From: Naegleria gruberi | Lineage: Eukaryota | Assembly: GCA_000004985.1 (NCBI GenBank) | Contig: GG739318.1 | DNA length: 1,843 bases | Direction: 5' to 3' (one strand) | Shown here: positions 1 to 1,843 of the stretch, piece after piece | Layout of the letters: each line of letters begins with the position of its first letter | How positions within the stretch are numbered: position 1 is the stretch's first letter | Notes under the pieces: generated by a model | The model's input: the letters and a program-made list of their open reading frames with translations, nothing else | The model's database searches: none | Told to the model about the DNA's origin: nothing | Translations under genes and position numbers: made by a program

Positions 1-452
1 ACCATATTCACGAACAGTATCCTTACACTTTTCATGAATATCCTTATCACCAATAAAACCCAAAAAGTTATTAGTACCAAAGTTAATAACCTTGTCCTTC
101 TTTCCTTCAACAGTGAATTCAACATCGGCAACTGAAGTGACGACATATTCATGTTCCTTCATAGCATTAATTGTAGCATCAACATTGCTATCATCAGAGG
201 TTGGAACAAGTGGTACAGGTTCCCAATCTTCAATAATTTCATCTTCTTGTTTCTTGGAAAGTTTTTGTGGTGGCACAGCTGAACGTCTCTTGCTCATCAA
301 ATACCAAACAATTAAAACAATAATTGAAACATCAATCAATGAACGATATGGGTGATTTTGAAACTCTCCAACAAGAATATCGGCAAGTTTGTTAAAGATG
401 TTGACGTATCGAGACAATGATTCCATTGCCGATAATGTTGATGTTGCCTCTT
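1..452 (-). CDS. LCB1: Serine palmitoyltransferase subunit 1 (LCB1/SPTLC1 family), N-terminal 150 codons; partial, C-terminus beyond the window's left edge
   Basis: Reverse-complement translation from ATG at 452..450 reads MSTQEATSTLSAMESLSRYVNIFNKLADILVGEFQNHPYRSLIDVSIIVLIVWYLMSKRRSAVPPQKLSKKQEDEIIEDWEPVPLVPTSDDSNVDATINAMKEHEYVVTSVADVEFTVEGKKDKVINFGTNNFLGFIGDKDIHEKCKDTVREYG. The frame stays open to position 3; positions 1-2 are a partial codon. From memory, 'LSxxQExDxxIEDWEPxPLV' aligns with S. cerevisiae Lcb1 'LSPQEIDALIEDWEPEPLV' and human SPTLC1 'IEEWQPEPLV'. 'INFGTNNFLGF...T..EYG' aligns with 'NLASNNFLQL...TIKNYG' / 'INFASFNFLGLL'. The hydrophobic 'SLIDVSIIVLIVWYLM' matches the N-terminal membrane segment of Lcb1. 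Start context AAAAAAATGTCC (A-rich, A at -3, Ser second codon) is typical for yeast. The coding strand is purine-rich, as expected. Confidence 0.85.
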
Positions 453-600
453 GTGTGGACATTTTTTTCTTCTTGAGAATTTTAATATTAGGCGGATCAC
501 CCGCTAAACCCTTTTCGCAAATGCTGGCTTGACTTTTAACGATTTTTTGTTAATGGATTTTTGCGATGTGAGCGAAATGTAGAATTGCCCAAGCTCGACT
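453..600 (-). promoter_or_regulatory. Probable LCB1 5' leader / core promoter region. It is locally less AT-rich (~40% GC) than its surroundings, ends in an A7 tract abutting the ATG, and has no upstream ATG on the mRNA strand.
   Basis: There is no 'cat' on the plus strand between 453 and 600, so no uATG in the first ~150 nt of the leader. A run of seven T at 453-459 on the plus strand gives AAAAAAA immediately 5' of ATG on the minus strand. The true TSS and promoter boundaries cannot be set from sequence alone. Confidence 0.45.
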
Positions 601-621
601 TGTAAATTTTTTCGAAAGTAT

Positions 622-647
622 TTGAAATTTCACCAAGTCTTGAAATT
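622..647. repeat. 10-bp perfect palindrome TGAAATTTCA (623-632), with TTGAAATT repeated directly at 622-629 and 640-647
   Basis: Seen directly in the sequence. The core GAAnnTTC is a two-unit heat-shock-element-like arrangement. The third unit that a functional HSE needs is absent. Confidence 0.5.
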
Positions 648-764
648 AATAAAGTCAAATATTAAATGTATTGATTGTTGTAATATACTTGTTAGGCCTG
701 TTTGGAAGGGTCAAGAATAACACACGGAACCCTTTTTCCTTGATATCTCAATGATACGTTTCGG

Positions 765-792
765 TTCTTCAATAGCAAGCTGTATTGAAGAA
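765..792. repeat. Perfect 10-bp inverted repeat TTCTTCAATA-(8 nt: GCAAGCTG)-TATTGAAGAA
   Basis: Seen directly in the sequence: the reverse complement of 765-774 equals 783-792. Part of the spacer is also self-complementary (C776:G782, A777:T781). Confidence 0.6.
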
Positions 793-799
793 AAGTCAT

Positions 800-807
800 T
801 ATAAAAG
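800..807 (+). promoter_or_regulatory. Consensus TATA box TATAAAAG on the plus strand. Read on the minus strand it is CTTTTATA, so the orientation is ambiguous.
   Basis: Exact match to the TATAWAWR consensus. It lies ~350 bp from the LCB1 ATG and ~800 bp upstream of the coding-like segment at 1598. The perfect inverted repeat at 765-792 sits immediately upstream of it. Confidence 0.4.
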
Positions 808-1365
808 GACTCAACCTGACAAACCTTCTTTGTTTTTGTATCAAAGCATCTCGTTTCTTACTCACTACATAGTTGCCAGCAATACATTGTCCTGAATTTA
901 AGGGTTCATTCAGATCAAGAAGATCACATAATTGACAAGTATCATAATACGTAATGGATTCTATTGAACTTGTTCTGCAGGTGTTAAAGGATTAGCAAGA
1001 TTTGTTTCCGTAAAGAAGGACCTTCAAATTTTCTGTGAACTGAACTTGTAAAATGCTGTTGATTATACTGCCCTTTAGCATGAATTCTGCCTTTTTGGAG
1101 AAGGACTCATTTTCACTCTTTCAACAACATATGTTCCAATTCAGCAAGATATTAAATCAGCGAATAAGATTTGTGAAGAAATGAAGGATATTTTTGTTTC
1201 AGGAAGAGGAGATCGAATTTCTCCCAATAAAGAACTGGAATCATGGCCATCATATCCTGCAATATTCATTCATATAATACATGCATAGAATCATAGCCAC
1301 AAATTTGAGAGAGTTGCCTTTCAATCTTGATCTAAAATTGGAGATTTTGATTTCATGCCTTGATC

Positions 1366-1388
1366 AGATTCGGATTCAGATTCAGATA
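1366..1388. repeat. Short tandem hexamer repeat (RGATTC), ~3.8 copies: AGATTC GGATTC AGATTC AGATA
   Basis: Seen directly in the sequence. It falls inside the low-confidence ORF 1281..1601, where it would encode QIRIQIQII. Confidence 0.6.
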
Positions 1389-1597
1389 ATAACTAAGCTG
1401 GTACACCAAAGTCTAAAATCAAGATATCATCCAATTATCGCAGTTGACTATTCAACATGGCGATCAAGTAATAGTGTTGAAATTTGTGAGCTTTCCGAGA
1501 GAACTGCTCAGATCTTACATGTTTGCACATCAATTTTGAAACCAATAACAGAGCTTGACGGATCAGAAAAGCAATTATTATTCAAGATTATTATCGA

Positions 1598-1821
1598 ATG
1601 AATGGGCAAAGTATTGAGAGAAATAAGAGCAAGCTTACCAAGTACAAGAATGTTTTTAGAACAATCAAGAGCAAAGCAAAAGCAAATTGGAGGGTGAGAA
1701 TTCAAATGGTGAATCCACTGCAAGTGTAGTTGAAGAGATCCCTAGGAAGAAATCGAAGAAGGGTGATAATGATGTATCAAAGGAGAATGAAAAGAATAAC
1801 AGTACTTCTGATTCTGATTAA
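1598..1821 (+). CDS. Candidate small protein-coding segment, with the reading frame split across two overlapping frames. ATG 1598..TAG 1729 gives a 43-aa Lys-rich peptide. An open frame 1660..TAA 1821 gives NNQEQSKSKLEGENSNGESTASVVEEIPRKKSKKGDNDVSKENEKNNSTSDSD*. It is either a small gene with a short intron or frameshift, or it is non-coding.
   Basis: The plus strand is strongly purine-rich here, a coding-sense signature in yeasts. The frame ending at TAA 1819-1821 uses yeast-preferred codons (GGT, AAG, GAA, TCT, ACT, GTT) and ends in an acidic Ser/Asp tail typical of real C-termini. That frame has no in-frame ATG after its upstream stop (TAG 1657-1659). In-frame joining is possible by a 49-nt intron (GT 1611 ... 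TTTTTAG 1659) from ATG 1602, which would give MGK|NNQEQ... (56 aa). A -1 shift from the ATG-1598 frame would also join them. No homolog recognised. Confidence 0.3.
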
Positions 1822-1843
1822 TTATTGTAAACAATCCTTTCGG

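What the first reader, a model, noticed from the sequence alone, without database searches (positions are those of the whole stretch)
453..1843. About 1.39 kb next to LCB1 with no long ORF on either strand, yet with strong promoter-like signals
Compact yeast genomes rarely leave 1.4 kb without a gene. The interval carries a consensus TATA box, a perfect inverted repeat, polyadenylation-like signals and a coding-like purine-rich tail. It has only fragmented reading frames (≤106 aa, and the longest has poor codon usage). Three explanations are possible: (i) an unusually long divergent promoter, (ii) an unannotated ncRNA or small-ORF transcript, or (iii) an intron-containing or frameshifted gene.
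Basis: partly seen in the sequence, partly recalled or inferred. Interest (0 to 1): 0.5.

Follow-up and report, generated by a model that had tools for sequence, protein, structure and literature searches.

The report
Decayed gene fragments beside Naegleria LCB1
The apparently gene-free 1.4 kb next to LCB1 comes from the amoeba Naegleria gruberi, not a yeast, and its right half holds two broken, fused fragments of genes from a repeated Naegleria-specific family, which is an ordinary genomic relic.

Summary
The window is a complete 1,843-bp Naegleria gruberi scaffold. Its only deposited protein is EFC35363.1, the N-terminus of LCB1/SPT1 (minus strand, 1-462). In detail: no ORF in 453-1843 exceeds 106 aa. 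The "promoter-like signals" do not exceed chance: TATAWAWR occurs once against 0.96 expected, AATAAA 3 times against 4.0, and 20% of shuffles match the 10-nt inverted repeat.

About 640 bp of the interval is dead coding sequence.
- **1179-1365 (minus)** matches the C-terminus of a 272-aa ORF on a Naegleria-like metagenome contig, L001. Nucleotide identity is 78%, and 25 of 40 mismatches fall at third codon positions. The window copy carries one frameshift and one TGA.
- **1364-1821 (plus)** matches the C-terminal part of N. gruberi NAEGRDRAFT_54818, with 111 of 127 aligned residues identical. It carries four frame changes, two premature stops and two internal deletions (about 59 aa and 7 aa).

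On L001 the two genes lie about 2.2 kb apart and divergent. In the window they are fused, so I infer an internal deletion. At least four other N. gruberi loci encode family members, mostly as fragments.

Positions 463-1178 remain unassigned and presumably include the LCB1 promoter. Rfam, RNA folding, Pfam and PDB searches found nothing there.

This is ordinary pseudogene or repeat debris, possibly a transposon relic.

The parts
1..462 (-). N-terminal 154 codons of LCB1 / serine palmitoyltransferase subunit 1. The start codon is at 460-462 and the ORF runs off the left end of the scaffold.
   Evidence: 100% identical to N. gruberi EFC35363.1, a partial protein of 145 aa. PDB phmmer: yeast SPT1 E=5.2e-10, Arabidopsis LCB1 E=8.5e-10, human SPTLC1 E=4.9e-06.
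463..1178 (.). Unassigned spacer. It is presumably the LCB1 5' flank and promoter, plus sequence of unknown origin.
   Evidence: No similarity to L001 by blastn or tblastx. No Pfam hit on its ORFs. No Rfam hit. RNA folding z-scores are +0.57 and -0.16. One minus-strand frame in 692-1180 has only 4 stops in 163 codons, which 3.6% of shuffles match; the region was chosen after the fact, so this is inconclusive.
765..792 (.). Perfect inverted repeat TTCTTCAATA / TATTGAAGAA with an 8-nt loop.
   Evidence: 20% of mononucleotide shuffles of 453-1843 give an arm of 10 nt or more, so it is at chance level.
800..807 (+).
   Evidence: 1 match against 0.96 expected; 112 of 200 shuffles have at least one match.
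1179..1365 (-). Pseudogene fragment A. It corresponds to the last 63 codons (residues 208-270) of a gene like the 272-aa ORF on L001 (2377-3195, minus). It carries a frameshift near 1323 (a 2-nt deletion relative to L001 2510-2511) and an in-frame TGA at 1266-1268, where L001 has GGA (Gly).
   Evidence: blastn: 189 aligned columns, 77.8% identity, E=1.3e-38. DNA alignment. Frameshift-aware alignment: 46 of 62 residues identical. The 40 mismatches split 10/5/25 over codon positions 1/2/3 of the minus-strand ORF, so the minus strand was the coding strand.
1364..1387 (+). (TCAGAT)4 microsatellite at the junction of the two fragments. It encodes the SDSDSDSD of the family's acidic, Ser-rich linker.
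   Evidence: Tandem Repeats Finder, period 6, 4 copies. P0002 has DSDSDSDSD at the matching position.
1364..1416 (+). Pseudogene fragment B, part 1 (frame 2). This is the linker remnant SDSDSDSDNN*AGTPKSK, matching roughly P0002 residues 17-35. TAA at 1394-1396 replaces Gln. It is followed by a frame-changing deletion of about P0002 residues 36-94, the predicted long helix.
   Evidence: tblastn: 14 of 23 residues identical. P0002 residues 1-50 against window 1250-1440 score 58, against 27 +/- 4 for 200 shuffles, none reaching it. P0002 residues 45-95 find no significant match anywhere in 463-1440 (p about 0.1-0.18).
1417..1821 (+). Pseudogene fragment B, part 2. This is the C-terminal domain and Lys/Glu-rich tail of a NAEGRDRAFT_54818-like gene, read in frames 1, 3, 2 and 1 in turn. 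Lesions: a deletion of about 19 nt (7 aa, removing LTHKQRA) with a frameshift near 1474-1483; TGA for Cys at 1599-1601; -1 frameshifts in A-runs near 1611 and near 1682. The stop codon is at 1819-1821.
   Evidence: Protein search: P0002 E=8.1e-30. Frameshift-aware alignment to P0002 residues 95-231: 111 of 127 aligned pairs identical, with the lesions listed. The residues spanning the first two lesions are conserved in paralogues P0003, P0004, P0005 and P0008.

Best explanation
Positions 453-1843 form the 5' flank of the Naegleria gruberi LCB1 gene on a small unplaced scaffold. The right 640 bp (1179-1821) is non-functional debris made of two pseudogene fragments joined head to head.

Fragment A (minus strand, 1179-1365) is the 3' end of a gene like the 272-aa ORF on metagenome contig L001. 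Fragment B (plus strand, 1364-1821) is the linker and C-terminal domain of a gene of the Naegleria-specific NAEGRDRAFT_54818/56850 family.

On L001 the two parent genes sit next to each other and divergent, with about 2.2 kb between the homologous points. I infer that the window derives from such a two-gene unit by one internal deletion. That deletion would have removed both 5' halves and the shared intergenic region. Further decay followed: four frame changes, two stops and two deletions in B, and one frameshift and one stop in A.

The unit is dispersed in several, mostly broken copies in N. gruberi. It therefore behaves like a repeat, possibly a DNA-transposon relic, and this would also explain why the assembly ends 22 bp after fragment B.

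The homologies, the lesions and the coding strand of A are shown. The single-deletion history, the repeat or mobile nature, and the absence of function are inferred. Positions 463-1178 remain unassigned and presumably contain the LCB1 promoter and 5' UTR.
For: - **Origin:** (N. gruberi EFC35363.1; contig length 1843 equals the window length). GC is 34-36%, against 35% for the genome.
- **Fragment B:** (P0002, E=8.1e-30). Searches give 111 of 127 residues identical over P0002 95-231, three frameshifts, a TGA and a 7-aa deletion. The linker match beats all 200 shuffles, and the helix region is absent.
- **Family B:** searches show N. gruberi members on scaffolds of 8, 12.6, 508 and 712 kb. Searches show that the intact 435-aa P0008 matches the L001 N-terminal ORF (E=6e-08) and P0002 (E=4e-27). 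This defines the full-length architecture, of which the window keeps only the C-terminal part.
- **Fragment A:** (78% nucleotide identity over 187 nt, with sharp boundaries at 1180 and 1366). (mismatches 10/5/25 by codon position). (46 of 62 residues identical, one frameshift, one TGA).
- **Same order and orientation of the two genes on L001:**
- **No deposited protein from 1081-1821:** one search returned no hit near 100% identity.
- **No RNA-family or structure signal:**
- **Motifs at chance level:**
Against: - No genomic DNA of the N. gruberi paralogues could be retrieved. Copy number, element ends and the deletion history therefore rest on protein hits and on one metagenome contig.
- The two -1 frameshifts lie in A-runs and could be sequencing errors on a low-coverage scaffold.
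- Transcription was not tested, so a residual RNA or small-ORF product cannot be excluded.
- 716 bp (463-1178) has no assignment.
- The transposon reading lacks a recognisable transposase domain (no Pfam hit) and lacks demonstrable terminal repeats.
Confidence: 0.8

Rival explanations
1. Sequencing or assembly artefact. The scaffold is a low-coverage Sanger leftover, the frameshifts and stops are base-calling errors, and the locus really carries an intact NAEGRDRAFT_54818-like gene.
For: The window is a complete 1.8-kb unplaced scaffold. Two of the frameshifts are single-base losses in A-runs, near 1611 and 1682.
Against: The other lesions are not typical read errors. They are a deletion of about 59 aa covering the conserved helix, a deletion of about 19 nt that removes LTHKQRA, CAA->TAA and TGY->TGA substitutions, a 2-nt deletion and a GGA->TGA change in fragment A, and the absence of the whole N-terminal domain of about 270 aa. 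The retained part is only 87% identical to the nearest paralogue, so this is a distinct, diverged copy. The adjoining LCB1 ORF on the same scaffold is clean over 154 codons.
Confidence: 0.06
2. A functional but unannotated transcript. Candidates are a spliced small-ORF gene (for example the 106-aa ORF at 1281-1601, or MDSIELVLQ joined to the frame-2 ORF at 1081-1285) or a non-coding RNA driven by the TATA box at 800.
For: A TATAAAAG lies at 800-807. GT...AG intron-like pairs can be drawn by eye between 980 and 1078. The 107-codon open stretch is longer than in 96% of shuffles.
Against: No Pfam hit for any ORF. No protein homologue other than through the out-of-frame family B segments. Rfam found nothing significant. 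Folding energies are indistinguishable from shuffles. The TATA and AATAAA motifs are at chance frequency. Between the window and L001, the plus-strand frames over 1180-1366 take their mismatches mostly at codon positions 1 or 2, so those frames are not under coding constraint.
Confidence: 0.07
3. The whole interval is simply an unusually long promoter shared by LCB1 and an unseen gene lying beyond the right end of the scaffold.
For: LCB1 starts at 462 and reads away from the interval. Positions 463-1178 have no other assignment.
Against: Positions 1179-1821 are demonstrably derived from coding sequence of two gene families. Fragment B reads towards the right end and terminates at 1821, so it is a gene 3' end and not a promoter. 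The promoter motifs are not enriched.
Confidence: 0.04

Closest known systems
Naegleria gruberi hypothetical protein family NAEGRDRAFT_54818 / 71001 / 76475 / 56850 (uncharacterised; no Pfam domain)
   Same: Window 1364-1821 encodes the acidic Ser/Asp linker, the C-terminal helical domain and the Lys/Glu-rich tail of this family, out of frame. It is 87% identical to NAEGRDRAFT_54818 over 127 aligned residues. The domain order matches the intact 435-aa member.
   Different: The window copy lacks the N-terminal domain of about 270 aa and the long helix. It has four frame changes and two premature stops, and no start codon in context. It is a pseudogene fragment, not a member able to make the protein.
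Internally deleted, non-autonomous copies of two-gene DNA transposons, such as dSpm/I derivatives of maize En/Spm (CACTA/CMC superfamily). CMC-EnSpm repeats are listed for N. lovaniensis (PMC6125883 Table 3).
   Same: Two adjacent genes recur together at two independent loci, the window and L001. Family B has several dispersed, mostly broken copies. The window copy looks like an internal-deletion derivative that keeps only the two outer gene ends. It also lies on an unplaced scaffold that ends just after the repeat.
   Different: No transposase domain was detected: Pfam gives 0 families at E<=10 for the 272-aa, 219-aa and joined ORFs. No PDB relative was found. No terminal inverted repeats or target-site duplications could be shown. 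There is one CACTA at 863, and the other end would lie off the scaffold. My impression that the L001 ORF resembles Tnp2-type transposases comes from memory and is not a test.
LCB1 / SPTLC1, the serine palmitoyltransferase long-chain base subunit 1 (the neighbouring gene)
   Same: The N-terminal region aligns to yeast, Arabidopsis and human subunit 1 up to the start of the aminotransferase fold, ending ...FGTNNFLGFIGDKDIHEKCKDTVREYG.
   Different: Only 154 codons are on the scaffold. The PLP-fold domain is not in the window. The source is a heterolobosean amoeba, not a yeast.

Membership tests
LCB1/SPT1 (neighbouring gene, 1-462 minus) | Sequence homology of the N-terminal region to characterised SPT subunit 1 | tested here: met
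   phmmer against PDB: 8c82_B E=5.2e-10, 7yjk_A E=8.5e-10, 6m4n_A E=4.9e-06. The alignment covers query residues 35-154.
LCB1/SPT1 (neighbouring gene, 1-462 minus) | Complete class-II aminotransferase (PLP-fold) domain | not testable with these tools
   The ORF runs off the scaffold end after 154 codons. The rest of the gene could not be retrieved.
NAEGRDRAFT_54818-family gene (fragment B) | Significant sequence homology to family members | tested here: met
   E=8.1e-30 to P0002. 111 of 127 residues identical over P0002 95-231.
NAEGRDRAFT_54818-family gene (fragment B) | Uninterrupted reading frame with the full architecture: N-terminal domain, linker, long helix and C-terminal domain | tested here: not met
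   Four frame changes, TAA at 1394-1396 and TGA at 1599-1601. The helix (P0002 residues about 36-94) and the N-terminal domain are absent. It is therefore classed as a pseudogene fragment.
Pseudogene (fragments A and B) | Clear derivation from coding sequence together with disabling lesions that splicing cannot repair | tested here: met
   For A, third-position bias of mismatches (10/5/25), one frameshift and one TGA. For B, the lesions are deletions relative to contiguous conserved residues of the paralogues.
Pseudogene (fragments A and B) | Lesions verified in independent sequence data | not testable with these tools
   No reads or alternative assemblies of N. gruberi were reachable. Exact look-ups failed.
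CACTA / CMC-EnSpm DNA transposon | Tnp2-type (DDE) transposase domain | tested here: not met
   Pfam hmmscan of the L001 272-aa, 219-aa and joined 489-aa ORFs, and of the window minus-strand translation, gave 0 families. PDB phmmer gave 0 hits.
CACTA / CMC-EnSpm DNA transposon | Terminal inverted repeats starting CACTA, with a 3-bp target-site duplication | tested here: inconclusive
   There is a single CACTA at 863 (+) and a TAGTG at 1472 inside fragment B. Any right terminus would lie beyond the scaffold end.
CACTA / CMC-EnSpm DNA transposon | Multiple dispersed copies in the genome | tested here: inconclusive
   Family B is found at four or more other N. gruberi loci and on L001. Gene A was seen only in the window and on L001. 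Scans of metagenome and viral collections found no further loci.
Structured non-coding RNA | Match to an Rfam family, or a thermodynamic stability signal | tested here: not met
   Best Rfam E=0.78 (snoR41, 22 bits against a 40-bit gathering score). No tRNA. Folding z-scores are +0.57 and -0.16 for 463-1180.
   TATAWAWR: 1 against 0.96 expected. AATAAA: 3 against 4.0 expected. Promoter activity itself cannot be tested here.

The most novel reading that the evidence does not exclude
Fragments A and B may be the two outer ends of an internally deleted copy of an undescribed two-gene mobile element of Naegleria. One gene would be a highly diverged, possibly CMC/EnSpm-like transposase, represented by the 219-aa plus 272-aa ORFs on L001. 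The other would be an accessory protein of the NAEGRDRAFT_54818/56850 family. The copy would have inserted a few hundred bp upstream of LCB1. If so, part of 463-1178 (perhaps from the CACTA at 863 rightwards) would be the subterminal region of the element.
Probability: 0.3. Interest if true: 0.3.

Novelty: new member of a known kind. Interest (0 to 1): 0.15.

Why it matters
The result matters mainly as a correction. The interval is neither a mysterious gene desert in a yeast nor a hidden RNA gene. It is unannotated pseudogene or repeat debris on a leftover scaffold of the N. gruberi assembly.

It has modest practical value for annotation:
- It flags an unannotated pseudogene pair.
- It shows that several short N. 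gruberi "predicted proteins" (101, 115 and 242 aa) are fragments of one family of about 435 aa.
- It points to a recurrent two-gene unit that may be an unclassified Naegleria repeat. Most N. gruberi repeats are still unclassified (bioRxiv 10.1101/2025.04.15.648976).

Tried and rejected
- **Retrieving paralogue DNA.** Exact-protein look-ups for P0001, P0002, P0004, P0005 and the 106-aa window ORF found nothing on record. Only P0003 gave a contig, L001.
- **Scans for more loci.** The first alignment, A1, was too divergent to use. Metagenome scans with A3 (family B) and A4 (gene A) found no confirmed relative. A viral-contig scan with the 272-aa ORF found none.
- **Domain and function assignment.** Pfam found nothing significant for the window ORFs, P0002, P0008 or the L001 ORFs, apart from a BTB domain in an unrelated L001 neighbour. 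PDB sequence searches gave no hit for the 272-aa ORF and only E>=0.14 for P0002.
- **Structure of P0002.** The AlphaFold2 model has mean pLDDT 67, high over residues 50-190. It shows a long helix, a beta-hairpin and three helices. Foldseek against PDB gave nothing with E<=0.001. The best matches were prefoldin-like coiled coils at E about 1, and a BEN-domain hit at E=8.3 is not meaningful. The afdb50 library was unavailable.
- **Alternative placement of the missing helix.** A permissive alignment placed P0002 residues 51-94 on window 1256-1416. I rejected it because it is not better than shuffles (p about 0.1-0.18), and because that DNA is homologous to the minus-strand gene A.
- **Further decayed coding sequence in 692-1180 (minus).** The frame has few stops (4 in 163 codons, p about 0.04, region chosen after the fact) but no homologue. 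I left it as inconclusive.
- **Internal repeats.** Only short matches at chance level were found.
- **Literature.** No paper mentions any of the four locus tags. No description of a Naegleria EnSpm element was found beyond a RepeatMasker table.
Full report
**Origin of the window.** The minus-strand ORF 1-462 is 100% identical to a single database protein, "predicted protein, partial [Naegleria gruberi]" (EFC35363.1/XP_002668107.1, 145 aa). The longest contig carrying it is 1,843 bp, exactly the window length. The window is therefore a complete small scaffold of the N. gruberi assembly and not yeast DNA. Its GC content of 34-36% fits the 35% reported for that genome. The genome has 40.9 Mb, 784 scaffolds, 15,711 genes and 5.1% repeats (PMC6125883 Table 1). 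That is about one gene per 2.6 kb, so 1.4 kb without an ORF is not unusual there.

**Checking the observation.** No ORF in 453-1843 exceeds 106 aa. The longest stop-free stretch is 107 codons, against 77 +/- 16 in shuffles, and 4% of shuffles reach it. The "promoter-like signals" exist but do not exceed chance:
- TATAAAAG at 800-807 is one match against 0.96 expected.
- AATAAA occurs 3 times against 4.0 expected.
- The perfect inverted repeat at 765-774/783-792 has 10-nt arms, which 20% of shuffles equal or exceed.

The purine-rich tail is real (65% purine in 1687-1821). It turns out to be the Lys/Glu/Asn-rich C-terminal tail of a decayed gene.

**Fragment B (plus strand, 1364-1821).** I joined the plus-strand reading-frame pieces into one conceptual translation and searched with it. 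It hit one protein, N. gruberi NAEGRDRAFT_54818 (P0002, 242 aa, partial), at E=8.1e-30. A frameshift-aware alignment maps P0002 residues 95-231 onto window 1417-1803 with 111 of 127 aligned pairs identical. The reading passes through frames 1, 3, 2 and 1. The lesions are:
- a deletion of about 19 nt that removes LTHKQRA and shifts the frame, near 1474-1483;
- TGA in place of Cys at 1599-1601;
- single-base losses in A-runs near 1611 and near 1682.

Upstream, 1364-1416 (frame 2) reads SDSDSDSDNN*AGTPKSK and matches the P0002 linker SDSDSDSDNDQAGSQISKS. CAA has become TAA at 1394-1396. This match scores 58, against 27 +/- 4 in 200 shuffles, none of which reach it. P0002 residues about 36-94 have no significant counterpart anywhere in 463-1440 (p about 0.1-0.18). 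These residues form the long, confidently predicted helix of the AlphaFold model and are conserved in the paralogues. Every lesion is a loss relative to contiguous residues that are conserved in paralogues. Splicing therefore cannot restore a reading frame. No deposited protein corresponds to this part of the window.

**The family behind fragment B.** An exhaustive HMMER search and a profile search found few relatives, and all are Naegleria or Naegleria-like:
- NAEGRDRAFT_71001 (101 aa, on a 508-kb scaffold);
- NAEGRDRAFT_76475 (115 aa, on a 12.6-kb scaffold);
- an ENA metagenome ORF (P0003);
- NAEGRDRAFT_56850 (P0008, 435 aa, intact, on a 712-kb scaffold), found through a cluster look-up.

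P0008 aligns with P0002 over the C-terminal 144 residues (E=4e-27). Its N-terminal half aligns with the ORF that precedes P0003 on the metagenome contig (E=6e-08). This gives the full architecture: an N-terminal domain, an acidic Ser-rich linker, a long helix and a C-terminal helical domain. The window retains only the linker and the C-terminal domain. No function could be assigned. There is no Pfam domain and no PDB relative. Foldseek found no match with E<=0.001 for the model.

**Fragment A (minus strand, 1179-1365).** The only relative whose DNA could be fetched is L001, a 5,519-bp ENA metagenome contig. Its family-B ORF is 59/62 identical to N. gruberi P0004. Besides the expected weak match in fragment B, window 1180-1366 matches L001 2387-2575 at 78% nucleotide identity (E=1.3e-38), with sharp boundaries on both sides. 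On L001 this is the C-terminus of a 272-aa minus-strand ORF. Of the 40 mismatches, 10, 5 and 25 fall at codon positions 1, 2 and 3 of that ORF. The minus strand was therefore the coding strand, and most of the divergence happened under purifying selection. The window copy is 46/62 identical at protein level. It has a frameshift near 1323 (a 2-nt deletion) and GGA->TGA at 1266-1268.

**How the pieces fit (inference).** On L001 the 272-aa gene (with a 219-aa ORF just upstream of it on the same strand) and the family-B gene are neighbours in divergent orientation. The points homologous to window 1366 and 1364 lie about 2.2 kb apart on L001. In the window the same two sequences occur in the same order and orientation, but they abut at a (TCAGAT)4 repeat. 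The simplest history is a two-gene unit that lost its centre in one deletion and then decayed further. The centre comprised both 5' gene halves and the shared promoter region. Three things support a repeated unit:
- The pair recurs at two loci.
- Family B has several, mostly fragmentary copies. Even the L001 copy has a frameshift near 4922 and ends at 5202.
- The fragments sit on small unplaced scaffolds.

This would also explain why the scaffold stops 22 bp after fragment B.

**Is it a transposon?** CMC-EnSpm and PiggyBac repeats are reported in N. lovaniensis, and most N. gruberi repeats are unclassified. From memory, the L001 ORF resembles Tnp2-type transposases in its motifs. The test failed, however: Pfam gave no family at E<=10 and PDB gave nothing. 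Terminal repeats cannot be assessed. There is one CACTA at 863, and the other end would lie off the scaffold. I treat the transposon reading as a lead with probability about 0.3.

**The remaining 716 bp (463-1178).** This stretch shows nothing:
- no similarity to L001;
- no Pfam hit;
- no Rfam hit (best E=0.78) and no tRNA;
- no unusual RNA stability (z = +0.57 and -0.16);
- only chance-level repeats.

One minus-strand frame over 692-1180 is poor in stop codons (4 in 163 codons; 3.6% of shuffles do as well; the region was chosen after the fact). It might be more decayed coding sequence, but this is inconclusive. The stretch presumably contains the LCB1 promoter and 5' UTR.

**Verdict.** The interval is the LCB1 5' flank plus two fused, unannotated pseudogene fragments of a Naegleria-specific repeated two-gene unit. 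This is a new instance of a well-known kind of genomic debris, and its interest is low.

Noticed in passing
L001:1237-2391 (+) and L001:2340-2410: A BTB-domain ORF on the metagenome contig ends at 2391, with its Pfam match stopping at profile position 75 of 110. Homology to window 1180 begins at 2387, almost the same point. An intron-like 57-nt stretch (GTAAGT...TTTGTTTCAG) on the plus strand spans that boundary. The BTB gene may be interrupted by the repeat, or it may be spliced there.
   Followed up: partly
L001:3977-5519: The L001 copy of the family-B gene is itself disrupted. A 2-nt frameshift near 4922 splits it into 320-aa and 90-aa ORFs. Homology to the paralogues stops at 5202, inside the C-terminal domain, and AT-rich non-coding sequence follows.
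   Followed up: partly
window 692-1180, minus strand: One reading frame has only 4 stop codons in 163 codons, including a 99-codon open stretch at about 692-990. Shuffles give a six-frame minimum of 7.5 +/- 1.7 stops, and 3.6% do as well. No Pfam hit was found. It could be further decayed coding sequence.
   Followed up: partly
window 863-869: The only CACTA pentamer in the window (CACTACA) lies 316 bp left of fragment A. It would be a candidate CACTA-type transposon terminus, but a single pentamer is expected by chance and no partner end is available.
   Followed up: no
window 1364-1387: A (TCAGAT)4 microsatellite sits exactly at the junction between the two pseudogene fragments. It may be the linker's Ser-Asp repeat, or the site of the recombination that fused them.
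   Followed up: partly
N. gruberi proteins P0004 (NAEGRDRAFT_71001, 101 aa), P0005 (NAEGRDRAFT_76475, 115 aa), P0002 (NAEGRDRAFT_54818, 242 aa): These short annotated 'predicted proteins' are overlapping fragments of one family of about 435 aa, as compared with the intact NAEGRDRAFT_56850. They probably represent broken copies or truncated gene models on different scaffolds.
   Followed up: partly
window 1172-1262, minus strand: A weak Rfam match to the C/D-box snoRNA family snoR41: 22.1 bits against a 40-bit gathering score, E=0.78. It lies inside pseudogene fragment A and I take it as chance.
   Followed up: no
L001:23-517 (+): An ORF with a weak HNH-endonuclease-like match (PF01844, E=0.032, below the curated cut-off) lies at the left end of the metagenome contig. 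Any relation to the repeat unit is unknown.
   Followed up: no
window 1-462 and the left scaffold end: The search with the 154-aa N-terminus returned no other N. gruberi protein. The remainder of LCB1 is therefore probably on another scaffold, or unannotated, and the gene appears to be split by the assembly.
   Followed up: no
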